A DNA stretch of 26,813 nucleotides from a virus, in UHGV virus genome UHGV-0083306. The stretch is one strand, 5' to 3'. Position 1 is the first letter of the stretch; each line of letters starts with the position of its first letter. Below, one piece after another: positions 1,034-15,384 of this stretch. The notes under the pieces are model-generated. The model saw only the letters and a program-made list of their open reading frames with translations. It searched no databases and was not told where the DNA came from. A program made the position numbers and the translations under genes.

Positions 1034-3238
1034 TTACTGCTGTGGTTGTTGCTGAGTTGATTTTTGCAGGATGCTGCTGATGTCCATGCGCTGCGCATGG
1101 CCCTGTGCCTGACTTTTCAGGACAAGCTCCGCATCAGCACGGGCATTGTCTCCTTGCTGTTGCTGGAACTGTCCGAGCAGTTTCAGAGCCTCGCGGATAT
1201 CAGATTTCTGCTGGCTATCGGCAGATGCGAGGATTTTCACAACATTTGCCGCTGCAACCTGAGCATCAGTCTGTGCCTGGAATGCTTTAACCTGAATGGC
1301 TGCCTGTTCGTTCTGCGCTTTCTGCAATTCAGCCTGACCAGCAAGAAGCTGACCTTGCGCAGCAACCATAGCCGGATCCGGCTGACTGGCCTGTTGTTGT
1401 TTCGCCTGCTCAACCATCTGCTGTTCTTCTGGTGTTCTCGGCTTAATAACGCCAGACAGAAGCAACTGATTGCGGTTGTATTCTTTAAGGTCGTCCATCC
1501 CTTCGCCGTCCATATTGTCGAGAATCATCGACGATACAAGGTCATGCTTCGGCGTTCCTGGCGGGATAAGTGCCAGCATGGAAAGCAACGACTTAACCGT
1601 TGCATCACGGCGAGTAGCGAACGACTGACCGACATCGACAGTCACTTCATAGTTACCCTGCGAAAGGTCGTTAAGCGCGATAACCTTCCCTGTCTGACGG
1701 TCAACCACTTCACCAGTCATCAGCGCCACGTCATCGCTGCCATCCTCATTAACGATGCGCATTGGCGTATCGCTGCCATAGACTTCACGAGCCATAGAAA
1801 GCCACACGACGCCAGCACGGCGCATGGATTTAGCCATGTTGTCCATGTAGATATAGGACTGCGTGTCCATCCGGTTAAAGATGCTATCAACGGTATCGGT
1901 AGCGACGTTGCTCGGCATGTTCTCAAGCTGCGACGCACCTGTAATTTGCTGAATAGCCGTTCCGGTGTACTGCAATAGCCCGGCAAGAGCAGGAGGCATT
2001 TGTGTCGGAGGTGTCCAGCCAGCAACCTGAGCCTCTGAAATGACCGTTCCGTTTTTGTCCTTCTTGCTGGTCATGGGAAGAACTGCAGGTCTTTTCTTAT
2101 TCCTCTCTGCCCAGTGATTCATTAATGGACCGGGAATGAAATCAACATCCACGATAGGAATGCCATCACCGCCAGCCTGAGTAGCATTATCTGCAATCAT
2201 GGAAACCATCAGGTTCTCAAGACGCTGTGCATCCATCGCTTTTGCTGCGTGGCCTTCGATTCGCTCCTGATTATCAACAAATGAACGACGCCCATATACC
2301 GGGATGAGAGGAATATGTTCGCCCGGAATACGCTTCGGTTCTTCCAGCCATTCAGCGCCAGACAGAAGACCGCAATAAACTCGGCGTTTCTTCACCGTTC
2401 GCTCGCCAATCAGTTCGAATGCACCATCGGTCAGCTCGTCGACAATATCTTTGATTTGCTCTTCATCATAGATTGCCGTTTCTCCGCTGACAGGGTTACG
2501 CCATGCTGTGAGCTTCACCTTCTCTATGCGGACTTCGTAGTAGCGTCCAACATAGATGGCATCTGGCGTTGACCAGTCATATTGAGTGCCAGTGTCATCA
2601 CGAGAAAGGCTTGCCGCGATGGAATCAGGGTATTCAGCCTCGAACGCTTTAGGCGTCATGGAGAACATTTCCATAGCCCACATAGCATCAGAACGGTCAT
2701 ATTGCTTGCTGTCCTGATCGAAGAAGACGCATGTCGCTGGGTCGTAAACAGGAAGAAGGCTGATGCGTCGCTGCTCGTTACTCGGATCCATTTCATCTTC
2801 GTAATCGGCACACATGCGGAAACAACCGAATCCGCCCGTTACAGCATCATCAAATGCGTTATCACACGCTTCGCCACCGGATGTTTCCTGATAGTCAGCG
2901 CGGAATTTGCCGTTCATCTTTTCGGCTAACGCTTCCGATGCCTTATCGTCCTTCGGCCTGAATTTAACGCTGATGCGATTCTGTCGATACTCGCCAATGA
3001 TGCGATCACATTCACGGGCAATCTTATTCAATTCAAAACGCGGATAATGCTCGAACCTGCCTTCATCAAATGAGTAACCAGCGTTTGTGCTGCCTTCCCA
3101 CTGTGCGCCGGACACCCGGACGAAACGTTGAGCCTCAATAATCTGCTCACGCATATCCTGCGTTGCTGACCAGGCATTATCAAAGTTGCACAGCACCTTG
3201 CGATGCCAGTCAGTCATCTTTCTATCATCAGCCATCAT
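1034..3238 (-). CDS. Portal protein (P22 gp1 family)
   Basis: The track ORF 1034..3250 starts at a TTG. I prefer ATG 3238, which forms an ATGA overlap with the terminase stop. The product is colinear with recalled P22 gp1 (RRVY..GEHIPLIPVYG; C-terminal Q/A-rich barrel DNARADAELVLKSQAQGHAQRMDISSILQ). Confidence 0.9.
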   Translation of the reverse strand: MMADDRKMTDWHRKVLCNFDNAWSATQDMREQIIEAQRFVRVSGAQWEGSTNAGYSFDEGRFEHYPRFELNKIARECDRIIGEYRQNRISVKFRPKDDKASEALAEKMNGKFRADYQETSGGEACDNAFDDAVTGGFGCFRMCADYEDEMDPSNEQRRISLLPVYDPATCVFFDQDSKQYDRSDAMWAMEMFSMTPKAFEAEYPDSIAASLSRDDTGTQYDWSTPDAIYVGRYYEVRIEKVKLTAWRNPVSGETAIYDEEQIKDIVDELTDGAFELIGERTVKKRRVYCGLLSGAEWLEEPKRIPGEHIPLIPVYGRRSFVDNQERIEGHAAKAMDAQRLENLMVSMIADNATQAGGDGIPIVDVDFIPGPLMNHWAERNKKRPAVLPMTSKKDKNGTVISEAQVAGWTPPTQMPPALAGLLQYTGTAIQQITGASQLENMPSNVATDTVDSIFNRMDTQSYIYMDNMAKSMRRAGVVWLSMAREVYGSDTPMRIVNEDGSDDVALMTGEVVDRQTGKVIALNDLSQGNYEVTVDVGQSFATRRDATVKSLLSMLALIPPGTPKHDLVSSMILDNMDGEGMDDLKEYNRNQLLLSGVIKPRTPEEQQMVEQAKQQQASQPDPAMVAAQGQLLAGQAELQKAQNEQAAIQVKAFQAQTDAQVAAANVVKILASADSQQKSDIREALKLLGQFQQQQGDNARADAELVLKSQAQGHAQRMDISSILQKSTQQQPQQ

Positions 3239-4731
3239 CCAACTCCGCAAGGTATGTTGTAGCTTGAGTAATCAATCTCTTTAGGATCTTTGATGTCTCG
3301 CATCTGTATTGCAAAACGCCTCATCATGTAGCCATAGCGAACAGCAGAAAGGATGTCGTCATTTAGCTTGACGATCTTCCCGTTCTCATCGCGGTGATAC
3401 AGGCGAAACTCTTCAAAGAATGGCTCGCAGGTGTTAAATACCTTGAAACGACCGTCGAGCATCATGTCGCGTATCTCTGCTATCCCGGGTTCGACCGCAT
3501 TACCTCCATCAGGCCATGTTGCATGATCTGGCAACATATCGAACCCAGCGTCGGCGTATTGTTCCTTGAGCTGAGCGCCGCCTCCCTTTTCGTGCTGATG
3601 CCCGTCATGAGGCCAAGCCGTAGGGGTGTTTTTGCTCCATGCTTTAACAGCACTCCATGCCTCTGTCGCCTTCTTCTGTTTGGCCTTCCAGACGCGAGAA
3701 AGATAAATCACGTCCTCGTCTTTATCCCACCAAAGCTGGATGTGTGCCTGTGGGTGATCCCATCCGAAGTCCATTGCATTGATGACGTAGAAGTGATCAG
3801 GACACTCGAACGGCTGACACTTAATAGTCTCTTCCGGTATCTGGAAGATTCGACCACTACCCATCGTAGGAATACCGCGAGCACGCGCCTCTCTCTCATG
3901 CTCAGGATAGGATGCGATGATTTGCTCTTTCTGCTCGTCGGTATAGTGCTCAGCGTCATAGATGGTCATGTTGACCACTTTCTGCGACTTGCTGGGATTC
4001 TTCAGGAACTTGGTAACAACGTCAGACATCCCCATCAGCGGGGTAAACGTCAGAATTGAGAATTGCCCGTATTTGTTGGTACGGGTAAGACCTTCGCCAT
4101 AAATGCTGTATGGTGGCTCTTCGTCAAACCACACGCCGTGGATTGTGTCACCCTGCCAGCGAGCGCGGCCTTGCGAGTATGGTTTGAAGTAGCAGATTGA
4201 AATGCCATCTTCAACGCCATCAGTCGTGTGATGCTTAACCAGAAGATGATCAACAAGGTTCGGAAAGAAAGGAGACTTCTTCCAGCTAATGATGTCCTCT
4301 TTCGGTATTGAACCGTAGCCCGGCTCATCATTCTCTTCAATACGACCGCACAGGATGCGTTGAGTCGTTTTGGTTACCGTCTCGTTTGTCTCGCCGCCAA
4401 TCCAGAAGACAACAGGCTCATAGAAACGCTTACCTTTCCACTCACCGCCATATTTACCATCAGCAGGATAGCCTTTTGTGCCCGGATAACGCCCGGTAAG
4501 GTGAAACGCGACTTCAGCAGCACCAGTAAATGACTTACCAAGCTGGTTACCAGCCATAAAACAGCGCTCTGGATAGTCATGTCCGGCGTCGATGAACTCA
4601 CGCTGTTTGCTGTATGGCGTAAATTCATATAGCAGGTGTGTGTTCCGGTAGTTCTCTTCTTCTTCGAGTAGCTCGAGCAACTCGATTTGCTCTTCGTCGC
4701 TCAGGTTATCAAGAATCGCGTCCAGTTCCAC
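3235..4731 (-). CDS. Terminase large subunit (P22 gp2 family)
   Basis: 498 aa, beginning [29 protein letters not shown], with a Walker-A-like GNQLGKS. Size and position match P22 gp2. It overlaps terS by 23 nt. Confidence 0.92.
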
Positions 4732-5197
4732 GGTTGAATAGCTCCTTGATACGAGAGCGCCGCTTATCGCGATCTCCCTTATCAGGTGTCACGTCTTCAA
4801 CTTGCGACTGCTCTTTGAGGCCCAAATCACGGGCGATGATGTTAGCGTTGAGAAGGTCAGCGGCTGCGCCAGAGAATTTCTGGTCGTAGATGATGTCTTC
4901 CGCTCGTGATGTGACGTCAGAAAAACCTTCCATTGACCGGAAGGTTCCCCATGTTTGCCTGGTGATATCAAGGAAGGTACACAATCCTGAAATAGTCATG
5001 GCTCGCATCTTAGGGACATTAGCCTTAATTATTTCTCCCTGATATGAAAATACCTTACCCTCCCATAGCGGGTTATCATCAGCCCACTCGAAGTATTCAC
5101 AACAAGCAGCCCACAGCGCCTCAGGCGATTCGAATTTAGGATTTCGCCCATGACTACTGCGGGCCTCCCAAAATCGGTTGCCCTTTGGTGCTGCCAT
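4709..5197 (-). CDS. Terminase small subunit (P22 gp3 family)
   Basis: 162 aa. The N- and C-termini ([29 protein letters not shown] / [24 protein letters not shown]) match recalled P22 gp3. The central part, where the P22 pac site lies, differs, so I cannot place a pac site. Confidence 0.9.
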
Positions 5198-6566: not shown

Positions 6567-6680
6567 AGCGTGTACCTACTCTTTGAAATGAACCTTTGCC
6601 GCACAGGAAACCAGCCCACCGAGGCTCGCCAGCACTAACTGGTATCCTCAAAGGCCCATTCCAAAGGGGCAGGTTCGGTG

Positions 6681-6767: not shown

Positions 6768-7205
6768 TTATTTCAGGCATTGCGTCCTGATGTACTCCTG
6801 CAGGTAGTTAACCTGCGCGGTTATCCTGTCGATTCCACTTCGTAGACGGTAATAATTGAGTTCAGCATCTGCTGTAAGTCTTGGGCTTTCTCCATCGCCC
6901 ATGCTGCTGGCTCCGGTCGTTGACTTTGCACAGGTGGCGGCGACTTGCATGCGCTTACGACCAGCAGAAACATCAGCACGGAGACTTTCGATAGTCGCGT
7001 TAGCATCAGCAAGCTCCTTTGTATATCTGGCGTCGAGTTCTGCTACATTGCGTTGACGTTTCTGCATGTCAGCGATAATGAATGCGGCCTTATCGCGCTG
7101 TTCTTTATAGGTAATGGCGTTATCACGGTAATGATTAACCGCCCATGACAGGCAGACGATGATGCAGATAACCAGAGCAGAGATAATCGCGGTTACTCTG
7201 CTCAT
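6768..7205 (-). CDS. Rz: Rz i-spanin
   Basis: 145 aa. The N-terminal TM anchor [34 protein letters not shown] equals recalled lambda Rz; the rest diverges and has P22 gp15-like length. ATGA overlap with the R stop. Confidence 0.9.
6821..7012 (-). CDS. Rz1: Rz1 o-spanin lipoprotein, embedded out of frame within Rz
   Basis: Signal peptide with lipobox LVVSAC, followed by a proline-rich mature part ([16 protein letters not shown]), as in lambda Rz1. The exact start Met is uncertain. Confidence 0.8.
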
Positions 7206-7678
7206 ACCTCAATCTCTCTGACCGCTCCGCCAGCCTCTTTGAATTTTGCAATCAGGCTGTCAGCCTTATGCTCGAACTGGCCATAACCAGCACCCGGCAG
7301 TGAAGCCCAGATATTGCTGCAACGGTCGATTGCCTGACGGATATCACCGCGATCAATCATCGGTAAAGCGCCACGCTCTTTAATCTGCTGCAATGCCACA
7401 GCGTCCTGGCTTTTCGGAGAGAAGTCTTTCAGGCCAAGCTGCTTGCGGTAGGCATCCCACCAACGGGAAAGAAGCTGGTAACGTCCGGCGGCTGTTGATT
7501 TGAGTTTGGGGTTTAGCGTGACAAGTTTGCGAGGGTGATCGGAGTAATCAGTGAATAGCTCTCCGCCAACAATGACGTCATAACCATGATTTCTGGTTTT
7601 CTGACGTCCGTTATCAGTTCCCTCTGACCACGCCAGCATATCGAGGAACGCCTTACGTTGATTATTGATTTCCACCAT
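7202..7678 (-). CDS. R: Endolysin, lambda R lytic transglycosylase
   Basis: 158 aa, essentially the recalled lambda R sequence ([39 protein letters not shown]...). Confidence 0.95.
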
Positions 7679-7985
7679 CTTCTACTCCGGCTTTTTTAGC
7701 AGCGAAGCGTTTGATAAGCGAACCTATCGAGTCAGTACCGATGTAGCCGATGAACACGCTCGTTATATAAGCGAGATTGCTACTTAGTCCTGCGAAGTCG
7801 AGAAGGTCACGAATGAACCAGGCGATAATGGCGCACATCGTTGCGTCGATTACTGTTTTTGTAAACGCACCGCCATTATATCTGCCGCGAAGGTACGCCA
7901 TTGCAAACGCAAGGATTGCCCCGATGCCTTGTTCCTTTGCCGCAAGAATGGCGGCTAACAGGTCATGTTTTTCTGGCATCTTCAT
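7662..7985 (-). CDS. S: Holin/antiholin, lambda S
   Basis: 107 aa matching recalled lambda S, including the Met1-Lys2-Met3 dual start (S107/S105). Confidence 0.95.
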
Positions 7986-8140: not shown

Positions 8141-8389
8141 ACCCGCGTTCACGAAGGTCATGTGTAGAAGGCCGCAGCGTAACTATCACTGATGAATTCA
8201 GGATAGCCAGTGGCTACGGCTCAGTTTGGGTCGTGCTGTTGCTGGGCGGCGATGACGCCTGTACGCATTTGGTGATCCGGTTCTGCTTCCGGTATTCGCT
8301 TAATTCAGCACAACGGAAAGAGCACTGGCTAACCAGGCTCGCCGACTCTTCACGATTATCGACTCAATGCTCTTACCTGTTGTGCAGAT

Positions 8390-8447
8390 ATAAAAAATCC
8401 CGAAACCGTTATGCAGGCTCTAACTATTACCTGCGAACTGTTTCGGG
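8390..8447 (-). terminator. tR' terminator (end of the pR' 6S-type transcript)
   Basis: Long hairpin CCCGAAAC...GTTTCGGG (8399..8447), followed on the minus strand by ATTTTTTATA. It matches recalled lambda tR'. Confidence 0.8.
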
Positions 8448-8580
8448 ATTGCATTTTGCAGACCTCTCTGCCTGCGATGGTTGGAGTTCCAGACGATACG
8501 TCGAAGTGACCAACTAGGCGGAATCGGTAGTAAGCGCCGCCTCTTTTCATCTCACTACCACAACGAGCGAATTAACCCAT

Positions 8581-9072
8581 CTATCCCATACTGGAGAATT
8601 CACCATGATATTTTATCCTGGCATTTTCCATTGCCTTTCTAGCCTCCTCGATATCGTCAAAACACCCTACATGAATCCTTTTACCATTGACTCTAATTCT
8701 TCCAACCCACTTGTTTGCAGCAGAATTAAAAGTCACCCCCTTCACACCAGATGAATTGTTTTTCCTCATCTTGCTGTTCCATGAGTTTTGAGTGTTAGTA
8801 ACAACACGAAGATTGGCTATCCGGTTATCAGACCTATCACCATTAATATGGTCAATCACATCGGTTGGCCAATCATTGTAAACCATCAGCCATGCAATTC
8901 TATGGACATATAGCCGCATTCCATAAAGTTTTACCTGCAGATATCCATTGGTTTTATAGCCAACAACAGCGCCATAGATAAATCTAGAGGACCGAGGTGG
9001 ATTCTTCCATGTAAGAATTCCAGTATCTGGATTGTAATTAAAAAGTCTCAATGCATCTTCACGTTTTAACAT
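8581..9072 (-). CDS. HNH homing endonuclease with AP2-like DNA-binding domain
   Basis: 163 aa. HNH_3-type motif HRIAWLMVY..VIDHINGDRSDNRIANLR..TNTQN, then an AP2-like GVKGVTF..KWVGRIRVNGKRIHVGCFDDIEEA. Confidence 0.85.
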   Translation of the reverse strand: MLKREDALRLFNYNPDTGILTWKNPPRSSRFIYGAVVGYKTNGYLQVKLYGMRLYVHRIAWLMVYNDWPTDVIDHINGDRSDNRIANLRVVTNTQNSWNSKMRKNNSSGVKGVTFNSAANKWVGRIRVNGKRIHVGCFDDIEEARKAMENARIKYHGEFSSMG

Positions 9073-9092
9073 AGGCGAACCACATAGATATT

Positions 9093-9157
9093 AGAGCCTG
9101 CTGACATAGAAATATCACCACGAGAGAAGTCGCCAAAAGCGATATTTCTCAGGCTCT
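9093..9157 (-). other. Interrupted 17-bp hairpin in the 5' UTR of the HNH gene
   Basis: AGAGCCTG/CAGGCTCT (8 bp) plus AGAAATATC/GATATTTCT (9 bp), with a 7-nt bulge and a 24-nt loop. It ends 20 nt before the ATG, which lacks a strong SD. Confidence 0.4.
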
Positions 9158-9260
9158 ATTCCTATGTGCTCTCGAGTTTATGATGCGCATGTCAGTGCGC
9201 TTAGAACTTAAAGATGAGGTGGGTAAAAGCTTAAAGAATGTGAACGGATATAAATCTGCC

Positions 9261-9301
9261 ATTCTTGGGTCAAATTTACCCAATTTTATTCAATAAGTCA
9301 A
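9261..9301 (-). promoter_or_regulatory. Late promoter pR' with Q-binding element and -10-like pause element (qut)
   Basis: Minus strand: TTGACT (9301..9296), 17 nt (TATTGAATAAAATTGGG), TAAATT (9278..9273), TGACCC, then AAGAAT at +1..+6 (lambda: AACGAT). It is identical to recalled lambda pR' through the -10. Confidence 0.8.
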
Positions 9302-9343
9302 TATCATGCCGTTAATATGTTGCCATCCGTGGCAATCATGCTG

Positions 9344-9967
9344 CTAACGTGTGACCGCATTCAAAATGTTGTCTGCGATTGACTCTTCTTTGTGGCATTG
9401 CACCACCAGAGCGTCATACAGCGGCTTAACAGTGCGTGACCAGGTGGGTTGGGTAAGGTTTGGGATTAGCATCGTCACAGCGCGATATGCTGCGCTTGCT
9501 GGCATCCTTGAATAGCCGACGCCTTTGCATCTTCCGCACTCTTTCTCGACAACTCTCCCCCACAGCTCTGTTTTGGCAATATCAACCGCACGGCCTGTAC
9601 CGTGGCAATCTCTGCATCTTGCCCCCGGCGTCGCGGCACTACGGCAATAATCCGCATAAGCGAATGTTGCGAGCACTTGCAGTACCTTTGCCTTAGTATT
9701 TCCTTCAAGCTTTGCCACACCACGGTATTTCCCCGATACCTTGTGTGCAAATTGCATCAGATAGTTGATAGCCTTTTGTTTGTCGTTCTGGCTGAGTTCG
9801 TGCTTACCGCAGAATGCAGCCATACCGAATCCGGCTTGTGATTGCGCCATCCCCATAGCAGCCATCACATCAGTACCGGAAAGAGAGTCAGAAGCCGTGG
9901 CCCGTGGTGAGTCGCTCATCATCGGGCTTTTTGGCGAATGAAATTTAGCTACGCTTTCGAGTCTCAT
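9344..9967 (-). CDS. Q: Late antiterminator Q (lambda type)
   Basis: 207 aa matching recalled lambda Q (MRLESVAKFHSPKSPMMSDSPRATASDSLSGTDVMAAMG...), with a zinc finger CRDCHGTG..CGRCKGVG. Confidence 0.95.
   Translation of the reverse strand: MRLESVAKFHSPKSPMMSDSPRATASDSLSGTDVMAAMGMAQSQAGFGMAAFCGKHELSQNDKQKAINYLMQFAHKVSGKYRGVAKLEGNTKAKVLQVLATFAYADYCRSAATPGARCRDCHGTGRAVDIAKTELWGRVVEKECGRCKGVGYSRMPASAAYRAVTMLIPNLTQPTWSRTVKPLYDALVVQCHKEESIADNILNAVTR
9667..9699 (+). promoter_or_regulatory. paQ-like CII-dependent antisense promoter inside Q
   Basis: TTGCGAGCACTTGC (TTGC-N6-TTGC), then 13 nt, then TAGTAT. The geometry is the same as pRE and pI in this window. Confidence 0.6.
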
Positions 9968-10152
9968 GGCCTTCCCCTTTTTCCCTGTTTGACCATCAGG
10001 ACGCCGTTAACTATTACGTGACGCTCGCCTTTACTGTCTCGGTTGTACTTGAGCACTGTTCCTCTTGCGCAGGAAAGCATCCTTGCCACTTCGGTCTGAT
10101 TGCCTCGTGTCTGGATAAGAAGCTCTGGTATCGTTTGAATTGTGGCGTTCAT
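9964..10152 (-). CDS. ninH: NinH-like small DNA-binding protein
   Basis: 62 aa. TIPELLIQTRGNQTEVARMLSCARGTVLKY..HVIVNGVLMV parallels recalled lambda NinH. ATGA overlap with Q. Confidence 0.8.
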   Translation of the reverse strand: MNATIQTIPELLIQTRGNQTEVARMLSCARGTVLKYNRDSKGERHVIVNGVLMVKQGKRGRP

Positions 10153-10511
10153 ACGTTCTCCAGTTCGGTGATTTTTATTCCAAGCCGTCCGCCTGGTACT
10201 TTCACACCACGAATTACGCGAATGTCATCGAATTGCTCGTCGTCTTCCGCAAATCCGGCGTGGATAAGGGAGTCGAGTAAACCTTTCAGGATGTTATCGA
10301 GGTCGCGGCGGCGGGAGTCTGGAACGTCTGCGATGACTTTGATGCGGAGTCTTGATTTGGTGAAAATGTCTAACTTGAGTTGGCGGATGATTTGCTGAAC
10401 GTCTTTTCGGTATTTCTGGCCTTTATCGCTGATGTAGTATTGGCTTCCCCGTCTTCGCCAGTAGGTGTTCACCGACGGCGGGTAAGGAAGCACAAACTGA
10501 TATTCGTTCAT
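10149..10511 (-). CDS. rusA: RusA Holliday-junction resolvase
   Basis: 120 aa, colinear with E. coli RusA (PPSVNTYWR, DSRRRDLDNILKGLLDSLIHAGF, GGRLGIKITE). Confidence 0.9.
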   Translation of the reverse strand: MNEYQFVLPYPPSVNTYWRRRGSQYYISDKGQKYRKDVQQIIRQLKLDIFTKSRLRIKVIADVPDSRRRDLDNILKGLLDSLIHAGFAEDDEQFDDIRVIRGVKVPGGRLGIKITELENV

Positions 10512-10798
10512 GGCTTAATCTTCCCCTCCTTCAGCAGGATCGCCTGCGTCCTGATCACGCCTTCGAGGTGATAAAGTCTGGCGTCTTTGTTGTCGAGATT
10601 ATGGGTGCGTCGGTCGATCTCCGCGTGGCAGTCACTACAAGCCCATGCACCGATCAGGTCGTCAGGCTTCATTCCCGTTCCGCAAATTCCAGCCATCCGG
10701 TAATGCGCCAGAACTGTAGTTTCAGGATTGCCATTGCATACGCCGTAAATACGTACCTGGCATTCTCTGCCACGTGCTTCTTTGCGTAGATTAGCCAT
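10508..10798 (-). CDS. YbcO-like (DUF1364) Cys/His-rich putative nuclease
   Basis: 96 aa, near-colinear with recalled DLP12 YbcO (MANLRKEARGRECQVRIYGVCNGNPETTVLAH..CSDCHAEIDRRTH). Confidence 0.8.
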   Translation of the reverse strand: MANLRKEARGRECQVRIYGVCNGNPETTVLAHYRMAGICGTGMKPDDLIGAWACSDCHAEIDRRTHNLDNKDARLYHLEGVIRTQAILLKEGKIKP

Positions 10799-11003
10799 TT
10801 ACCTTCCCTCGCAATTGAAGAATTGACTGAAGGTCTTTTTTAATAAATATGCGAGTGCGAATTGAGCAGTAGTTTTCCTTCATTCTGGCGTAGTAATAGT
10901 CCTTTCTTTGCTTAAGTTTGTTGGCATCCGCTGTCATCCAGTCTTTTACAGCAAACTTAATTAACCAGCGGTAACAGAGATACCATTTCAGGTAATCACT
11001 CAT
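10791..11003 (-). CDS. Hypothetical basic protein (70 aa)
   Basis: AT-rich ORF that overlaps both neighbours by a few nt, which suggests translational coupling. No recognisable domain. Confidence 0.5.
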   Translation of the reverse strand: MSDYLKWYLCYRWLIKFAVKDWMTADANKLKQRKDYYYARMKENYCSIRTRIFIKKDLQSILQLRGKVNG

Positions 11004-11166
11004 CGTCTTCTTCCTCGTACATTGAGCTATTCGGATCGCTCATCAGTTCTGCGCAGCAGTGCTCACACACGTGAACTTCCAGCACATGCAGCTTCTGACC
11101 GCAGTTAGCGCACGTTAAAGCTCGCTCGACGCTTTCTTGTTCGTAACTTCGATTTGGGTCAATCAC
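10996..11166 (-). CDS. ninF: NinF
   Basis: Below the track length cutoff (56 aa). GTG 11166 lies in a GTGA overlap with the ninE stop. The product [56 protein letters not shown] matches recalled lambda NinF. Confidence 0.8.
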
Positions 11167-11345
11167 CTTGTTTTCCTCGCACGTTCTCTAAGCCACCGGA
11201 TATCCCACAGGTGAGCCGTGTAGTTGAAGGTTTTTACGTCAGATTCTTTTGGGATTGGCTTGCGTTTATTTCTGGAGCGTTTCGTTGGAAGGTATTTGCA
11301 GTTTTCACAGATGATGTCGGTGAAACTTCGTCGCTGTCTCGCCAT
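11163..11345 (-). CDS. ninE: NinE
   Basis: 60 aa, [60 protein letters not shown], lambda/DLP12 NinE type. Confidence 0.85.
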
Positions 11346-11485
11346 ACGTCCTCCTTTTCCTGCGGTAGTGGTAAAACTCCTGTTGGTGTTCTTTCACACC
11401 GGAGACACCATCGATTCCAGTAAGGTTAATTTGGTCTGAAGCGGTTATCTTCTTTGCATTCACCGCACCGATCACATCGCATCAT
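11312..11485 (-). pseudogene. ninD: ninD disrupted by a nonsense codon
   Basis: ATG 11485 opens [19 protein letters not shown], then TAA at 11428..11426, where I recall CAA in lambda. The downstream NinD codons ([37 protein letters not shown]) remain in frame. The lambda stop position reads TCA here. Confidence 0.6.
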
Positions 11486-11903
11486 GCAGCCCGATCTCCC
11501 CATCTCGCTTTCCACTCCAGAGCCAGTCGCGCTTCGTCTGACCACTTAACGCCACGCTCTGTACCGAATGCCTGTATAAGCTCTAATAACTCCGCAAATT
11601 CGCTTACACGCATCCTGCTGGTTGACTGGCCTATTACCACAAGCCATTCCCGGCAAGGTTAGGAACAACGTCCTGCTGCTTTAATGCTGCGGTAAACACA
11701 CACTTCCAGCTTTCTGCATCCAGCCAGCGACCATGCCATTCAACCTGACGAGAGACGTCACCAAGGCAAGCCCAAAGCTTTCGATTCTGGTCTAAGCTGC
11801 GGTTGCGCTGCTTAAACTCGACAATGATGTCTAAATCGCATGTCCTAAGATACTGAATGGCGTTATATCTTATAGATTCATTAGTAAGGTGTATTTGACA
11901 CAT
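11482..11903 (-). pseudogene. ninB: ninB (orf) 3' portion, separated from its 5' end and carrying a -1 frameshift
   Basis: 11634..11903 encodes ..DIIVEFKQRNRSLDQNRKLWACLGDVSRQVEWHGRWLDAESWKCVFTAALKQQDVVPNLAGNG, then stops. The last 52 NinB codons ([25 protein letters not shown]) continue in another frame, 11640..11482. GGCTTGTGG here compares with recalled lambda GGCTTTGTGG. Confidence 0.75.
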
Positions 11904-12400
11904 TTCATTTTAATACCTCGCAAATTCGCCGAAACATTCATCCGCTTTATTTGCATATACTTTATGAGCTTCCTTTGGGTCATCGTAAAACCCAAGATTA
12001 ACTTTCCTCTTGTTGATTACGATTTGCGCCCTCCATTTTCTTGATTTCTTATCCCATGAAACGCCTTTATATCCTGATTTGTTATTTGCCTTTTTGTTTA
12101 CGTTTTGGATGTTTTGAGATCGAGTTGCCAATCTAAGATTTGCTATACGATTGTCATCCCTAACGAGATTTATGTGGTCGATATCACTTTTTGGTAGACT
12201 GCCATTCATATAGAGCCACGCCAGCCTGTGTGCCTTATAAAGTTTTCCATCGACTTTTATTACCCAGTAGCCTTCGCTACTCTTATGCCCTGCGATATCC
12301 CCAGCATTCATTCTCTGGCATTTCTTTACTTTCCATGTGAATTTCCCTGTTAACTCATCGTAGAGAAGGACTTCTTTAAGTCTCTGCTGAGTTATTTGAT
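11825..12400 (-). mobile_element. 576-bp AT-rich HNH endonuclease insertion in ninB
   Basis: ATCA occurs at both edges (12404..12401 and 11828..11825). Removing 11825..12400 (192 codons) restores a continuous NinB frame (PTKPI-IVEFKQRNRS). Confidence 0.55.
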
Positions 12401-12497
12401 TGATTGGTTTGGTTGGGTCTGGAAGAATTTGCTGTATCGCGTGAATAACGTTTTGCTGATGAATGGGGCTTCTTAGTTCAAACGTTAGTTTCCTCAT
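11910..12497 (-). CDS. NinB(1-32)::HNH-AP2 homing endonuclease fusion ORF
   Basis: 195 aa. It starts MRKLTFELRSPIHQQNVIHAIQQILPDPTKPI (the NinB N-terminus), then HRLAWLYMNG..DIDHINLVRDDNRIANLRLATRSQN and GYKGVSW..KWRAQIVINKRKVNLGFYDDPKEA. It is a paralog of 8581..9072, roughly 35-40% identical by eye. Confidence 0.8.
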   Translation of the reverse strand: MRKLTFELRSPIHQQNVIHAIQQILPDPTKPINQITQQRLKEVLLYDELTGKFTWKVKKCQRMNAGDIAGHKSSEGYWVIKVDGKLYKAHRLAWLYMNGSLPKSDIDHINLVRDDNRIANLRLATRSQNIQNVNKKANNKSGYKGVSWDKKSRKWRAQIVINKRKVNLGFYDDPKEAHKVYANKADECFGEFARY

Positions 12498-12732
12498 TGC
12501 TCACCTTCTGCACGCATGGATTAATTAACGCCAAAATAGCTTCTGGTTTCTCAATAACATCGAACCGCTCACCACTTGCCATTCTTACAATCGTAATCCC
12601 GGCCTCAAATAGGGTTTCGATGTTGTCAGAGTTAACGTACAAGGGCTCATATGCACTTCTGGTGCTTTCTATCACGCCTGTGCTTGGTGGCTGATAGATG
12701 CTGCATTGCATGGTTAATTTTATAAATGGCAT
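12478..12732 (-). CDS. Hypothetical protein (84 aa)
   Basis: ORF packed between neighbours, overlapping the ninB start by 20 nt. No recognisable domain. Confidence 0.5.
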   Translation of the reverse strand: MPFIKLTMQCSIYQPPSTGVIESTRSAYEPLYVNSDNIETLFEAGITIVRMASGERFDVIEKPEAILALINPCVQKVSNEETNV

Positions 12733-13503: not shown

Positions 13504-15384
13504 TTAATACTCCGTCACGTTTTCCTGTCGCCACGCCTCGTCATATTCCGATTTCGGCATATTGGCGATGTAGCTATATGGCGATCCTGATTCAAGTTGC
13601 AGGAACTGGTGCGATTGCTCGTCAAGGAACAACGGGACACCACCTTCCCAACCTTCGCCGTTACGTTGCTTTTCAAGCATCAAAACAGATGCCGGAGATG
13701 CCAGTAGCTGTTCGTCCTTCTCTGACATCCTTTCACCACTCTGAACTCTCTGTAACGCTCTCTCGCGAGCCTTGTTACGCCAGATGATAAAAAGGTTGTC
13801 TGTCAGGTCTGTTATCGCTCCAGAGCCTTTTACGTCCATTTTACCGGTTGGTTTTTCTTCGCTGTCTCCTTTTCTGGAGTGAGTAACGAGAATGACGTGG
13901 GAGTTTGTTTTGTTTTTGAAGTCACAAATCGAGTCAACAAATGCTTTCTGCCCGTTATAGTCATCGTCACCTATGCCGCATTTCATCAGGCTGTCGATGA
14001 TGAATAACTGGATGCCGTATCGGCGGCGAGCGTAGTCGAATATTTCGATCAGCCTGTCGGCTTTCGCCGTTCCGGTCAGGCCAAACACCCAGAGTCTTTC
14101 GTCATAAAATTTAAATGCAGAGTCAATTTCCAGCACTGGCGGCATCTTGCAGCACGTTGCCTGACGGGTAAGTCGCTTAAGGAGAATACCAGGCTTCAGC
14201 TCAAGTGACGCGATGCACGTCTTCACACCCTGACGCATTGCCTCAAGTGCCATATGCCCGACAACCTCCGTTTTTCCGTGACCGTTCACACCATTGACCA
14301 GCGTCAACTCTGCCTCACGGAACTGGAATTTATCTGCCAGAGATTCCCACGGTGGATTAAACAGATACTGCTGCTTGCCGTAGAAAGCGTTGATAGTGTC
14401 CTGGTAAAACTCTCGCGCGCTGTAGAGTTCTTCAGGGTCGAAGTAGGATGCCGTGCCGATGTACTGCCAGATTTCATCCTCGGTAACACCGTTCATCAGG
14501 CATTCGTTGATGTCTTTGTACGGCAGAGTAACAAGACGGCAACGATGTTCACCGAGTCGGCTTGCGATTTCCCTTGCGGCTTCACGACCAACATCATCAA
14601 CGTCCATCGAGATGAATATTTCCTCAAACCTGTCGAGGTTGTGATACTCAAACTCAATCCACTGTTGCTTAGCGCCTTTTCCTCCACCAAACGGCACGGA
14701 TAACGCCGAGATGCCGTATTGCGCATAGCTCATACAATCAATTTCGCCTTCGCAAAGCACAACCGCCCTCACGCCAGCGTCCAGAGCCTGCCATCCGAAC
14801 AGACAAGGTTCACAATCACCTTCTGCCATAATGACTTTCTTCCCGTCCGGGCGCTCAGTGCTGATTCGCTTGACCTGCAACAACTCACCATCGCGTTTGT
14901 ACGGAAGCACCAGTGCATCAAGTTCTCGTTCTCCATTCCACACCTTGCCGCTGACAACCTCGTAGCGCTTTACGACTTCTGGCGATATGCCACGCGATTG
15001 CAGGTACTCAAGATGGGATTCTGTTCTGGTAACGTAGCGGGCTATTTTCTTGCGATCAGGTCTGGAGAATTTCTTCTCACGTTTGGCATCGAAATGGTGA
15101 TCGTCATCCTTGATACCGAGAAATGCTTTCGCTTCCTGCATAGCCTGATGCAGGTTAATTCCACGACATTCCATCCACAAATCAAGCATGTCACCGCCGT
15201 CTCCCTCAGCGAAATCAGCCCATTTTTTCTTGCCGCTAAGATTGACCTTAAGGCTGTTTCCCTTGTCACCGTTGACGTTACCGGCAACCCACTCATGCCC
15301 CTCTTTCTTGCCGTTTGGCAACAGGTGCGGAGCCACCCTGTCAACCTGCGCCCAAAGCAGGTCGCTGAGTTCACTTGGCCTCAT
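13504..15384 (-). CDS. Bifunctional primase-helicase (Toprim + DnaB/RecA-type helicase, T7 gp4/Twinkle-like)
   Basis: 626 aa. Toprim motifs VVLCEGEIDCMS and ISMDVDDVGREAA; Walker A NGVNGHGKTE; Walker B LFIIDSLMK; VILVTHSRK. The N-terminal ~90 aa lack a Cys4 zinc ribbon. Confidence 0.85.
   Translation of the reverse strand: MRPSELSDLLWAQVDRVAPHLLPNGKKEGHEWVAGNVNGDKGNSLKVNLSGKKKWADFAEGDGGDMLDLWMECRGINLHQAMQEAKAFLGIKDDDHHFDAKREKKFSRPDRKKIARYVTRTESHLEYLQSRGISPEVVKRYEVVSGKVWNGERELDALVLPYKRDGELLQVKRISTERPDGKKVIMAEGDCEPCLFGWQALDAGVRAVVLCEGEIDCMSYAQYGISALSVPFGGGKGAKQQWIEFEYHNLDRFEEIFISMDVDDVGREAAREIASRLGEHRCRLVTLPYKDINECLMNGVTEDEIWQYIGTASYFDPEELYSAREFYQDTINAFYGKQQYLFNPPWESLADKFQFREAELTLVNGVNGHGKTEVVGHMALEAMRQGVKTCIASLELKPGILLKRLTRQATCCKMPPVLEIDSAFKFYDERLWVFGLTGTAKADRLIEIFDYARRRYGIQLFIIDSLMKCGIGDDDYNGQKAFVDSICDFKNKTNSHVILVTHSRKGDSEEKPTGKMDVKGSGAITDLTDNLFIIWRNKARERALQRVQSGERMSEKDEQLLASPASVLMLEKQRNGEGWEGGVPLFLDEQSHQFLQLESGSPYSYIANMPKSEYDEAWRQENVTEY

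What the first reader, a model, noticed from the sequence alone, without database searches (positions are those of the whole stretch)
8577..12497. Two divergent copies of the same endonuclease family occupy two of the most conserved lambda-type modules of one phage
SEEN: the 163-aa and 195-aa proteins are colinear paralogs, roughly 35-40% identical by eye, with the same HNH_3 plus AP2 layout. Each lies in an AT-rich island within otherwise lambda-like DNA (the pR' leader and ninB). Sequence immediately flanking both inserts deviates from the lambda sequence I recall, whereas more distant flanks match.

KNOWN: homing endonucleases spread by cutting insert-free alleles and co-converting flanking markers. 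Intron- or free-standing endonucleases have been shown to mediate interference between co-infecting phages.

INFERENCE: together the pair could bias inheritance of the late-regulation and nin modules in mixed infections, or in crosses with resident lambdoid prophages. That would be a modular competition system rather than passive cargo.
Basis: inference. Interest (0 to 1): 0.55.

Follow-up and report, generated by a model that had tools for sequence, protein, structure and literature searches.

The report
Two selfish nuclease genes in lambdoid prophage
Two unrelated-by-descent copies of a very common phage "homing endonuclease" gene sit at exact, recurrent sites in a lambda-like E. coli prophage (the late-promoter leader and the ninB gene); each brings a sequence that could stand in for the host sequence it interrupts, which is neat but is a variation on well-known selfish DNA rather than a joint competition system.

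Summary
ORFs 8581-9072(-) and 11910-12497(-) are 40% identical HNH_3+AP2 proteins in AT-rich (38-40% GC) inserts inside lambda-like DNA.

- **Insert 1** (683 nt, 8582-9264) replaces one base at +3 of the pR' transcript, between pR'/qut and tR'.
- **Insert 2** (594 nt, 11808-12401) replaces 18 nt of ninB after codon 32.

Both are presence/absence polymorphisms at fixed junctions in many different lambdoid backbones. In 5,426 complete E. coli genomes, 16 carry insert 1, 8 carry insert 2 and none carries both. Both inserts vary less than their flanks, insert 2 by 12-30 fold. All family-invariant catalytic residues are intact. They are best read as two independent free-standing HNH homing endonuclease genes, not a coordinated pair.

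New anatomy:
- Insert 1 rebuilds a -10-like hexamer (AACGAT to AAGAAT) where lambda has its pause element. It carries a conserved leader hairpin overlapping the weak Shine-Dalgarno-like region. It belongs to a clade (56-100% identity) always found just downstream of a lambda-family Q gene.
- Insert 2 is fused in frame to ninB codons 1-32. It supplies a recoded ninB 5' end, so a full NinB is re-encoded. In this window that ninB is frameshifted.

Nuclease activity, homing and allele bias remain untested.

The parts
9273..9301 (-). Lambda-type late promoter pR' (-35 TTGACT 9301-9296, -10 TAAATT 9278-9273), with the Q-binding region between the hexamers. Transcription start +1 is window 9266.
   Evidence: The promoter scan finds TTGACT-17-TAAATT. 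It is base-for-base lambda 44553-44580. +1 is assigned by homology to the lambda 6S RNA start at 44587 (own knowledge) and to the AACGAT +1..+6 element (PMC4005639).
9261..9266 (-). Rebuilt -10-like hexamer AAGAAT at +1..+6. The AA is host sequence and GAAT is the first four bases of the insert. It replaces lambda AACGAT, the sigma70-dependent pause element needed for Q loading.
   Evidence: Sequence comparison. AAGAATGG is invariant in every carrier inspected. Diverged relatives have AATGCT or AATGAT, keeping A2 and T6. Pausing itself was not tested.
8582..9264 (-). Insert 1 (683 nt, 40% GC): initial transcribed sequence, structured leader and the HNH-1 gene. It replaces one base (lambda 44589).
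   Evidence: blastn against lambda. Length and junctions are identical in L004-L021 and L046-L059.
9081..9200 (-). Conserved leader RNA structure: small hairpin 9200-9185 and a roughly 30-bp imperfect hairpin 9168-9081. The 3' basal strand of the long hairpin overlaps the weak Shine-Dalgarno-like region of HNH-1.
   Evidence: RNAalifold on six lineages predicts it, with 4 pairs changed on both sides. 93% of cells are paired, against 30-52% when partners are slid. The single-sequence MFE gives the same fold and z = -3.14. No Rfam match at E<=1. Only six lineages, so support is moderate.
9066..9107 (-). 13-codon upstream ORF. It starts in the bulge of the long hairpin, and its TAA overlaps the HNH-1 ATG (ATGTTAA). 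Translational coupling is possible.
   Evidence: Read from the sequence. It is not conserved in L110 (ACG instead of ATG), so its role is doubtful.
8581..9072 (-). HNH-1: a 163-aa I-HmuI-like HNH nuclease domain plus a C-terminal AP2 DNA-binding domain. The stop codon TAG straddles the right junction (TA|G).
8390..8581 (-). Remainder of the lambda 6S leader from +4 onward, with the terminator tR' hairpin at 8447-8390. HNH-1 therefore lies between pR' and tR'.
   Evidence: 98.5% identical to lambda 44590-45271. tR' sequence located.
12402..12497 (-). Resident ninB start codon, ribosome-binding site and codons 1-32 (HK022/Sf6-type allele), now serving as the translational start of HNH-2.
   Evidence: 83.5% identical to lambda 40644-40739. 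The same allele occurs at empty sites. Carriers have at least 7 different left alleles or contexts, all fused at ...CCAACCAAACCAATC|.
11808..12401 (-). Insert 2 (594 nt here, 595 nt elsewhere; 38% GC): the HNH-2 body without its own start codon, stop, then a recoded ninB 5' end. It replaces 18 nt (lambda 40740-40757, codons VVTIQE).
   Evidence: There is a clean occupied/empty pair, L031 versus L076/L093, with 98% identical flanks.
11910..12497 (-). HNH-2 fusion ORF (195 aa): NinB residues 1-32 followed by an HNH_3 + AP2-like endonuclease.
   Evidence: Pfam HNH_3 9.2e-17; AP2 29.4 bits, below the cut-off. phrog_99 1.1e-74, matching from residue 28. Invariant catalytic residues are kept. There is no in-frame ATG before residue 63 (sequence).
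11808..11908 (-). Recoded substitute ninB 5' end carried by the insert: its own GAGG Shine-Dalgarno and an ATG one base after the HNH-2 stop. It encodes MKCVKYHLTNESIRYNAIQYLRTCDLDIIVEFKQ in intact carriers.
   Evidence: Alignment A1. NinB' of 142 aa matches Pfam NinB positions 4-131 and PDB 1pc6. The closest natural N-terminus seen is L091...LRNESIRTNAINHLRN....
11482..11903 (-). The ninB' gene, broken in this window into 89-aa (11634-11903) and 52-aa (11482-11640) ORFs by two 1-nt deletions, near 11892 and 11641.
   Evidence: The same deletions are in two independent assemblies that are 100% identical to the window (L021, L027), so they are unlikely to be sequencing errors.

Best explanation
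The window carries two independent free-standing homing endonuclease genes of the very large phage HNH_3/AP2 family (phrog_99). Each occupies its own fixed site in lambda-type DNA.

**HNH-1**
- It sits at +3 of the late promoter pR', upstream of tR'.
- Inferred: it is transcribed from pR' as part of an extended 6S-type leader of about 880 nt, without needing Q, and again as part of the Q-antiterminated late transcript.
- Inferred: its translation is held down by a conserved leader hairpin that covers the ribosome-binding region.
- The insert's first bases rebuild a -10-like hexamer. Inferred: the sigma70-dependent pause, and hence Q loading, are preserved.

**HNH-2**
- It is inserted after codon 32 of ninB and has no start codon of its own. 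Inferred: it is translated from the ninB start as a NinB(1-32)-endonuclease fusion.
- Its 3' end carries a recoded ninB 5' segment with its own SD and ATG, so a full-length NinB' is re-encoded downstream. The nucleotide sequence of the presumed target is scrambled in the process.

**Inferred mechanism for both**
- The enzyme nicks or cuts the empty allele in a co-infecting or resident lambdoid genome.
- Recombinational repair then copies the insert in, with very short co-conversion.
- This gives each insert, and markers within tens of bases of it, preferential inheritance.

**Shown:** the anatomy and the population pattern.
**Inferred:** cleavage, homing, pause retention, translational control and NinB' function.
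For: **Family and integrity**
-. Invariant residues H57, D74, H75, N77, D82, N83, R84, N87, R89 and N99 are all present in both copies.
- No intron-like RNA.

**Fixed-site presence/absence**
- Insert 1 is in 16 of 1,232 and insert 2 in 8 of 1,348 E. coli genomes that match the site region. The listed non-carriers have contiguous empty sites.
- Junctions are identical in all carriers.
- L031 versus L076/L093 is a clean occupied/empty pair.

**Many backgrounds**
- Lambda O/P, DnaB-type or primase-type replication; P22-type or other portals; two holin types.
- The insert-2 cassette is found in at least 7 left and at least 7 right ninB alleles. These include the deeply divergent 'type II' C-terminal allele, with which it shares only 12 nt beyond the junction.

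**Youth of the inserts relative to their flanks**
- Insert 2: pairwise difference 0.35%, against 10.9% (left flank) and 4.2-8.7% (right flank).
- Insert 1: 0.8%, against 2.4% and 5.0%.

**Degenerate copies, as expected in a homing cycle**
- L057/L058 have a 1-nt deletion; L062 has a 327-nt deletion.

**Host-function replacement**
- AAGAATGG is invariant at +1..+8. Lambda's element is AACGAT at +1..+6 (PMC4005639).
- NinB' is an intact 142-aa ORF in most carriers and is a full-length Pfam NinB match.

**Clade-level site fidelity**
- Relatives at 86, 74, 66, 62 and 56% identity all lie just downstream of a Q gene: a lambda-family (PF03589) Q in L107, L108 and L110, and a lambda-Q-like or unclassified truncated ORF in L106 and L111.

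**Leader hairpin**
-.

**Precedents**
- RBS-sequestering hairpins, intronless homing and marker exclusion in T4-type phages (PMC2988022).
- An in-frame host-N-terminus-HNH fusion in phage epsilon34 (PMC2629481).
Against: - No activity, cleavage site or inheritance bias was measured.
- Fine-scale mosaicism of ninB and of the pR' leader also exists at empty sites. General recombination among lambdoid phages could therefore have spread the inserts without any nuclease.
- Neither insert occurs in 50,697 sequenced phage records. No carrier is yet known to be a viable phage, although only about 1-2 carriers would be expected by chance.
- The HNH-1 Shine-Dalgarno is weak.
- The HNH-2 AP2 match is below Pfam's cut-off.
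- In this window ninB' is frameshifted, so the 'patch' is not being maintained in this lineage.
- Covariation support for the leader RNA rests on six lineages (11 of 500 shuffles reach the observed score).
- I-HmuI-type enzymes are nickases, so a double-strand break is not assured.
Confidence: 0.7

Rival explanations
1. Passive cargo. Both genes are inactive or neutral passengers that were inserted once and have since been shuffled among lambdoid prophages by ordinary homologous recombination. They have no drive.
For: Lambdoid nin and late-leader regions are finely mosaic even at empty sites. Degenerate HNH-1 copies exist. ninB' is decaying in this window. Both inserts are rare (about 1%).
Against: All family-invariant residues are retained in both copies. 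Insert 2 is 12-30 fold and insert 1 is 3-6 fold less diverse than its flanks. Allele switches occur within about 12-25 nt of both junctions of insert 2, including transfer into a ninB type that shares only 12 nt beyond the junction. That is hard to obtain by untargeted recombination.
Confidence: 0.15
2. A coordinated two-locus competition system. The pair acts together to bias inheritance of the late-regulation and nin modules.
For: Both are present in one genome, and lambda carries both empty sites. In a cross, each would exclude the rival's local markers if it is active.
Against: Zero of 5,426 complete E. coli genomes carry both, although 16 and 8 carry one. Their abundances differ greatly. 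They co-occur only in the window's own lineage. The two proteins are no closer to each other than to other HNH genes. There is no shared regulation: one lies in the early-right operon and the other in the pR' leader.
Confidence: 0.05
3. HNH-1 is a prophage-expressed exclusion or defence nuclease. Because it lies between constitutive pR' and tR', the lysogen would make it continuously. It would then cut the late-promoter leader of superinfecting lambda-type phages, with homing as a by-product.
For: Its position is upstream of tR' with no intervening terminator-like site. pR' is constitutive (own knowledge). None of the 16 carrier genomes has a second lambda-type pR' site, although only about 1.6 would be expected. 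The clade has stayed next to Q over long divergence.
Against: In the Xenorhabdus-type relatives the unit lies after a terminator, which would make it Q-dependent. The conserved hairpin over the ribosome-binding region argues for low expression. PADLOC gives only a weak 'homing endonuclease' hit. Degenerate copies are tolerated.
Confidence: 0.1

Closest known systems
Free-standing homing endonucleases of T-even phages (Seg and Mob proteins; 'intronless homing', marker exclusion)
   Same: The nuclease gene is not inside an intron or intein. It shows presence/absence polymorphism between related phages and is expected to give localized gene conversion and marker exclusion. RNA hairpins that sequester the ribosome-binding site are known for I-TevI/II/III, segB and mobE (PMC2988022).
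   Different: The hosts here are temperate lambdoid prophages. T4-type free-standing enzymes sit between genes and cut hundreds of base pairs away. These two sit inside a functional element, and allele switches within about 12-25 nt suggest action at or very near the insertion point. Activity was not tested here.
I-HmuI (Bacillus phage SPO1 intron-encoded HNH homing endonuclease, PDB 1u3e)
   Different: I-HmuI is intron-encoded, uses NUMOD/helix-turn-helix DNA-binding modules and is a nickase. The window proteins use an AP2 domain and have no intron.
mobE in nrdA of Aeromonas phage Aeh1, and mobA in T4 gene 60 (HEG insertions that split a gene)
   Same: An HNH endonuclease gene is inserted inside a coding gene without an intron or intein, and host function is retained by a work-around (PMC2988022).
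   Different: In those cases the host protein is split into two polypeptides that reassemble. Here the insert supplies a substitute N-terminal coding segment, so one full-length NinB' is encoded and the old 5' end is reused as the endonuclease's start.
Phage epsilon34 gene 31 (in-frame fusion of an eaE-like N-terminus to an HNH homing endonuclease), and the ShiLan insertion in actinophage methylases
   Same: HNH genes embedded in or fused to a resident phage ORF without splicing elements (PMC2629481; PMC11855218).
   Different: Neither report describes a carried replacement for the interrupted gene end. ShiLan is read out of frame within an uninterrupted host ORF.
Lambda pR'/qut late-gene regulatory region (Q-binding element, -10-like pause element AACGAT, 6S RNA, tR')
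   Same: The promoter, Q-binding region, +1/+2, the 6S leader from +4 onward and tR' are all lambda-identical or nearly so.
   Different: 683 nt are interposed at +3. The pause hexamer becomes AAGAAT, and the following GGG becomes GGC. Consequences for pausing and Q loading are untested.

Membership tests
Free-standing HNH homing endonuclease gene | Intact HNH (beta-beta-alpha-metal) catalytic motif | tested here: met
Free-standing HNH homing endonuclease gene | Attached sequence-reading DNA-binding module | tested here: met
Free-standing HNH homing endonuclease gene | Not housed in a self-splicing intron or intein | tested here: met
   No Rfam family at gathering score in the window, and none at E<=1 in 8300-12700. 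No intein/Hint domain in Pfam. HNH-2 ends in a stop codon, and only about 100 nt of non-HNH sequence remain in insert 2.
Free-standing HNH homing endonuclease gene | Presence/absence polymorphism at one exact site among otherwise homologous genomes | tested here: met
   L031 versus L076/L093 flanks are 98% identical, with 595 nt replacing 18 nt.
Free-standing HNH homing endonuclease gene | Evidence of horizontal spread: element younger than, and incongruent with, its flanks | tested here: met
   Pairwise differences: 0.35% against 4-11% for insert 2, and 0.8% against 2.4-5% for insert 1. Multiple flank alleles and backbones.
Free-standing HNH homing endonuclease gene | Site-specific nicking or cleavage of the insert-free allele, and nuclease-dependent gene conversion | not testable with these tools
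   Requires enzyme assays and phage crosses.
Group I intron-encoded homing endonuclease | Surrounding ribozyme core (P3-P9) able to splice | tested here: not met
   No Intron_gpI or any other Rfam match. Insert 2 has too little non-coding sequence. Insert 1 lies in a non-coding leader.
Phage packaging HNH (HK97 gp74-type, terminase-associated) | Gene adjacent to the terminase/cos region, working with terminase | tested here: not met
   HNH-1 lies between Q and the holin gene. HNH-2 lies in ninB. The terminase-size ORFs are at about 3235-5197. Carriers have several unrelated terminase and portal types.
Ribosome-binding-site-sequestering leader hairpins of homing endonuclease mRNAs (I-TevI / mobE type) | Stable conserved hairpin whose strand covers the Shine-Dalgarno region of the endonuclease | tested here: inconclusive
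   The hairpin is predicted independently by RNAalifold, with 4 compensatory pairs in 6 lineages. Its 3' basal strand overlaps AGG(A) in L110/L111 and GTGG in the window. The sample is small, and there is no expression data.
Lambda-type sigma70-dependent pause / Q-loading site | -10-like hexamer at +1..+6 with the key A2 and T6, downstream of an intact Q-binding element | tested here: met
   AAGAAT at 9266-9261, with an intact promoter and Q-binding region. Relatives have AATGCT or AATGAT. This is a sequence criterion only; pausing and Q loading are not testable here.

The most novel reading that the evidence does not exclude
These are 'self-patching' homing endonuclease cassettes, a route into functionally constrained DNA that needs neither intron nor intein. 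The mobile unit would carry a working substitute for the part it destroys. For HNH-1 that is a surrogate sigma70 pause hexamer and initial transcribed sequence; for HNH-2 it is a recoded NinB N-terminus with its own start. The unit would also borrow the host's expression signals. In addition, the HNH-1 clade would be a long-term resident of Q-dependent late-promoter leaders across Enterobacterales. It would be controlled by a conserved leader RNA fold, and in E. coli lineages it would be expressed from constitutive pR' in lysogens, where it could also attack superinfecting lambda-type phages.
Probability: 0.3. Interest if true: 0.65.

Novelty: new variant of a known kind. Interest (0 to 1): 0.45.

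Why it matters
**If the enzymes are active**
- Wild-type lambda is a predicted recipient at two textbook loci. Homing, co-conversion length and marker exclusion could then be measured in the best-understood phage genetic system.

**Insert 1**
- It is a natural experiment on the lambda Q-loading site: 683 nt interposed at +3, with only AA..AT GG retained.
- It directly tests how much of the initial transcribed region Q-lambda needs.

**Insert 2**
- It shows a way for a selfish nuclease gene to enter a coding sequence without splitting the protein. This may explain some 'N-terminal domain swaps' and sharp mosaic boundaries in lambdoid genes.

**Practical point for annotation**
- Pipelines currently mis-call the ninB 5' remnant as a partial 'HNH endonuclease' pseudogene and start HNH-2 at an internal ATA codon.

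Tried and rejected
1. **Group I intron or intein housing.** Rejected: no Rfam hit at gathering score or at E<=1, and no Hint domain.
2. **ninB frameshifts as sequencing errors.** Rejected: two independent assemblies are 100% identical to the window, including both deletions.
3. **The recoded ninB 5' segment and the AT-rich 'type II' NinB C-terminus of L031 are one native donor allele** (my hypothesis). Refuted: uninterrupted type II alleles (L076, L080, L089) have the ordinary lambda-like N-terminus, and L076/L093 is simply the empty-site counterpart of L031. The donor of the recoded segment remains unknown. The closest N-terminus seen is L091.
4. **Packaging-type HNH role.** Rejected on position and on the variety of terminases.
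5. **Known defence system.** PADLOC gives only a weak 'homing endonuclease' model.
6. **Searches that led nowhere.**
   - GTDB species representatives have no copy of the insert-1 junction and no NinB type II relative.
   - The scans for further lineages of the leader RNA returned only window-type sequences or chance matches.
   - P0008 and P0009 could not be located on contigs.
   - No paper in the searchable library mentions WP_000919140, or homing endonucleases in ninB.
7. **A pseudoknot between CGAGAG (9174-9169) and CTCTCG in the hairpin loop.** The two compensatory changes in L110 appear only after re-aligning one column by eye. The 5' strand abuts the base of a roughly 30-bp helix, so a simultaneous pseudoknot looks sterically unlikely. 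An alternative, mutually exclusive fold remains possible but untested.

Full report
**What the window is**

All genes in the region read on the minus strand. The order is that of a lambdoid phage with a P22-like packaging module. Upstream lie a primase/helicase-type replication gene (13504-15384), small ORFs and a FlbD-like 84-aa gene (12478-12732). Next come ninB, small nin-region ORFs, ybcO, rusA and ninH, then Q (9344-9967). After Q come the late promoter region and S, R, Rz (6768-7985), followed by the terminase and portal genes.

The window is 100% identical over 12.6 kb to contig k115_103893 of ENA assembly ERZ27229439 (a 100-kb contig). It is also 100% identical over 8.1 kb to a contig of ERZ1742766. 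It is therefore most likely an E. coli-type prophage (inference from that context).

**Checking the observation**

- The two ORFs are 40% identical over 149 residues (E=5e-34).
- Both match Pfam HNH_3 and AP2. HNH-1's AP2 score is just above Pfam's cut-off and HNH-2's is just below.
- Both match phrog_99 with E about 1e-75.

blastn against lambda fixes the boundaries to the base:

- Window 9978-9265 equals lambda 43873-44588 (99.4%), and window 8581-7900 equals lambda 44590-45271 (98.5%). Insert 1 is therefore 683 nt replacing one base.
- Window 12497-12402 equals lambda ninB 40644-40739 (83.5%), and window 11807-11481 equals lambda 40758-41085 (95.4%). Insert 2 is therefore 594 nt replacing 18 nt.
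- The inserts are 40% and 38% GC, against 50-53% around them.

The 'paralog' relation is real but unremarkable:

- tblastn finds this family in 3,057 of 50,697 phage records, with best identities of 46.6%.
- Five other HNH_3 genes from lambdoid nin regions are 21-39% identical to HNH-1. HNH-2 falls in the same range.

**Are the proteins intact?**

- In an alignment of 62 homologues (37-86% identity), ten HNH-domain residues are invariant: H57, D74, H75, N77, D82, N83, R84, N87, R89 and N99. Both window copies keep all of them.
- The AlphaFold model of HNH-1 is very confident (pLDDT 95.3).

**Distribution**

- Neither insert is present at DNA level in the phage collection. Phage hits cover only the flanks.
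- In 5,426 complete E. coli genomes, insert 1 is in 16 and insert 2 is in 8, with no genome in both lists. Another 1,200-1,300 genomes match the flanks, and the listed examples are contiguous empty sites.
- The exact HNH-1 protein (RefSeq WP_000919140.1) is listed in 1,724 blocks of the assembly collection. In all ten places shown it lies between a lambda-type Q gene and a lysis cassette. The replication genes, nin genes, holin types and packaging modules around it differ.
- The exact HNH-2 fusion protein is on 22 contigs, again in varied backbones. Only the window's own lineage also has HNH-1.
- IMG/VR adds 12 carriers of HNH-2 and about 17 of HNH-1. All are 98-100% identical, and the next relatives in that collection are below 50%.

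**Insert 2 in detail**

- *Left junction.* In all 26 carriers the left junction is ...CCAACCAAACCAATC|AATCAAATAACT. In the 24 carriers whose locus reaches it, the right junction is ...GAGTTTAAGCAG|CGCAACCGCAGC.
- *Left of the insert.* The resident ninB start and codons 1-32 remain. The HNH reading frame continues from them with no in-frame ATG before residue 63. The family-homologous part begins at about residue 28-34. The endonuclease must therefore be translated as a NinB(1-32) fusion.
- *Right end of the insert.* One base after the HNH stop, behind a GAGG, a second ATG opens MKCVKYHLTNESIRYNAIQYLRTCDLDIIVEFKQ. This runs straight into the resident RNRSLDQNRK... In other carriers it gives an intact 142-aa NinB'. 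NinB' matches Pfam NinB over positions 4-131 and matches the lambda Orf structure 1pc6.
- *Recoding.* The last 18 nt of the insert (ATTGTCGAGTTTAAGCAG) encode a similar peptide to the 18 nt they replace (GTAGTAACCATTCAGGAA). Only 8 of 18 bases agree (by eye). A target-site-immune allele would look like this (inference).
- *Diversity.* The cassette varies by 0.35% between carriers. The 96 nt to its left vary by 10.9% and the 150 nt to its right by 4.2-8.7%.
- *Flank alleles.* Carriers show at least seven left and seven right flank alleles. Those compared are also found at empty sites, and the first distinguishing SNPs lie about 21-25 nt from the junctions.
- *Most telling case, L031.* Here the cassette sits in a 'type II' ninB whose C-terminal part is unrelated at DNA level. 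Homology with the other carriers ends 12 nt after the junction. L076 and L093 are the matching empty alleles, with 98% identical flanks.
- *A rejected idea.* I first thought L031 showed the cassette's native donor gene. The empty type II alleles refute that.
- *State in this window.* Two 1-nt deletions (near 11892 and 11641) break ninB' into 89-aa and 52-aa ORFs. An alternative ATG five bases downstream absorbs the first deletion, and the second is a true frameshift. Both deletions recur in independent assemblies.

**Insert 1 in detail**

- *Position.* Lambda reads TAAATT TGACTC A(+1)ACGATGGGTTAATTCG. The window reads TAAATT TGACCC A(+1)AGAATGGCAGATTTATATCC ... GGGATA|GATGGGTTAATTCG.
  - The -2 C is a polymorphism shared with empty sites.
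  - The insert starts at +3.
  - The HNH-1 stop codon TAG straddles the right junction.
- *The pause element.* In lambda, AACGAT at +1..+6 is the -10-like element that causes the sigma70-dependent pause at which Q loads. It is followed by a GGG discriminator-like sequence. Replacing +17..+36 still allows Q modification (PMC4005639).
  - The insert re-creates AAGAAT, followed by GG. This is a closer match to TATAAT, and the key A2 and T6 are kept.
  - This octamer is invariant in every carrier inspected.
  - Retention of pausing and Q loading is an inference.
- *Transcription.* No promoter-like or terminator-like site lies between pR' and the HNH-1 start on the coding strand. The lambda tR' hairpin is intact at 8447-8390. 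HNH-1 should therefore be part of the Q-independent pR' transcript (inference; the constitutive activity of pR' is own knowledge).
- *Degenerate copies.* L057 and L058 have a 1-nt deletion, and L062 has a 327-nt internal deletion. All keep both junctions.

**A Q-linked clade and a conserved leader**

The large protein search found intermediates at 86, 74, 66, 62 (Xenorhabdus bovienii) and 56% identity.

- Every one that could be placed on a contig lies immediately downstream of a Q gene. For L107, L108 and L110 this is a PF03589 Q of 254-276 aa. For L106 and L111 it is a truncated upstream ORF whose family was not looked up; in L106 its end is lambda-Q-like at DNA level.
- In four lineages the unit follows the initial transcribed sequence directly.
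- In the two most distant lineages it lies after a tR'-like terminator and is followed by a second terminator.

About 125 nt upstream of the HNH start are conserved at nucleotide level across all six lineages.

- RNAalifold predicts a small hairpin plus a roughly 30-bp imperfect hairpin, with four pairs changed on both sides.
- With my own bracket string, 93% of cells pair, against 30-52% when partners are slid. 11 of 500 shuffles reach the observed covariation score.
- The window leader alone folds the same way, with z = -3.14.
- The basal 3' strand overlaps the Shine-Dalgarno-like bases.
- This resembles the RBS-sequestering hairpins of I-TevI, segB and mobE (PMC2988022).
- Support is moderate, because only six lineages are available. 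Scans for more lineages found none, and Rfam has no match.

**Interpretation**

The simplest account is two independent, probably active, free-standing HNH homing endonuclease genes. Each appears adapted to sit inside a constrained element by supplying a substitute for what it interrupts and by using host expression signals.

It matches what is established for T4 seg/mob genes (PMC2988022).
- The 'pair as a system' idea is contradicted by their independent distribution.
- The sequence deviations near the junctions are mostly natural allele differences, not co-conversion scars.
- The one clear piece of foreign flank is the 101-nt recoded ninB 5' end inside insert 2.

**Novelty and limits**

- HNH homing endonucleases in phages, in-frame N-terminal fusions (epsilon34 gene 31, PMC2629481), HNH insertions inside ORFs (PMC11855218) and nucleases at mosaic boundaries (PMC10448857) are all known.
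- I found no description of a homing endonuclease lineage resident in the Q-dependent late-promoter leader, nor of one in ninB with a carried replacement N-terminus. The library searched is incomplete.
- I rate this a new variant of a known kind, of moderate interest.
- Everything about activity, expression, pausing and NinB' function is inferred.

Noticed in passing
window 11482-11908 (-): ninB' carries two 1-nt deletions relative to all other carriers: CAAATA-CACC near 11892 and GGC-TTGTGG near 11641. The first is absorbed by an alternative ATG five bases downstream. The second truncates the protein. Both recur in independent assemblies, so ninB appears to be a real pseudogene in this lineage.
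   Followed up: yes
L031 3494-4493; L076 2411-3422: A second, AT-rich 'type II' NinB C-terminal module (RNRSIRQNARLHAML...) is followed by a NUMOD4+HNH_3 gene of 200 aa. The last residues of that gene (...KARWGDRVA) are the C-terminus of lambda-type NinB. So another endonuclease gene seems to have entered the 3' end of ninB together with a foreign gene segment, mirroring insert 2.
   Followed up: partly
L013 1262-1789 and 4037-4561; L018/L022/L024/L028/L030 (169-aa NUMOD4+HNH_3 between ninF and ybcO/rusA); L019 1570-2181; L023/L029 (177-aa HNH_3 left of the repressor): Lambdoid prophages commonly carry one to three further HNH_3 genes at other nin-region or immunity-region positions. L013 has three HNH genes in 6 kb. 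Two endonuclease genes in one phage is therefore not unusual.
   Followed up: partly
L110 about 1150-1385 and 1954-2050; L111 about 560-776 and 1270-1345: In the Xenorhabdus-type relatives the HNH unit lies after a tR'-like terminator (...TTTTTCATATCTGC) and is followed by a second terminator with the same tail. It looks as if the unit had inserted at the terminator and brought a replacement copy.
   Followed up: no
L057/L058 (1-nt deletion in HNH-1); L062 (327-nt internal deletion): Degenerate copies of insert 1 keep both junctions and the AAGAATGG start. This is consistent with decay after fixation.
   Followed up: partly
L019 about 6620-6680, versus window 8390-8447: The interior of the tR' hairpin is present as its reverse complement in CP196291 (…CCGTTGTGCAGGCTCTAACTATTACCTGCGAACTG…). 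This is a small inversion within the terminator palindrome.
   Followed up: no
window 9094-9104 (leader GCAGGCTCTAA) and about 8405-8415 (tR' TTAGAGCCTGC): An 11-nt perfect complementarity links the 3' strand of the HNH-1 leader hairpin and the inner part of lambda tR'. Equivalently, the 9-mer TAGAGCCTG is shared with the 5' strand. Chance is roughly 5%. It is absent in relatives with other terminators, so it is probably coincidence.
   Followed up: no
L002 3001-3117 and 3103-3588; L003 2965-3081 and 3067-3552: RefSeq/PGAP annotates the ninB 5' remnant as a partial 'HNH endonuclease' pseudogene and starts HNH-2 at an internal ATA codon (161 aa). The continuous 195-aa fusion ORF is missed.
   Followed up: yes
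L022, L023, L024, L028 (about 30 nt after pR'): Empty lambda-type pR' sites keep AACGATGG but then diverge from +9 to +14 into at least two other leader types. The initial transcribed region is thus itself a mosaic boundary. All HNH-1 carriers have the lambda-type 6S leader downstream.
   Followed up: partly
window 12478-12732 (-): A FlbD-like 84-aa ORF (phrog_8458 'flagellar protein', Pfam FlbD 25.5 bits) overlaps the ninB/HNH-2 start by 20 nt. It is always the left neighbour in carriers that encode the exact 195-aa HNH-2 protein.
   Followed up: no
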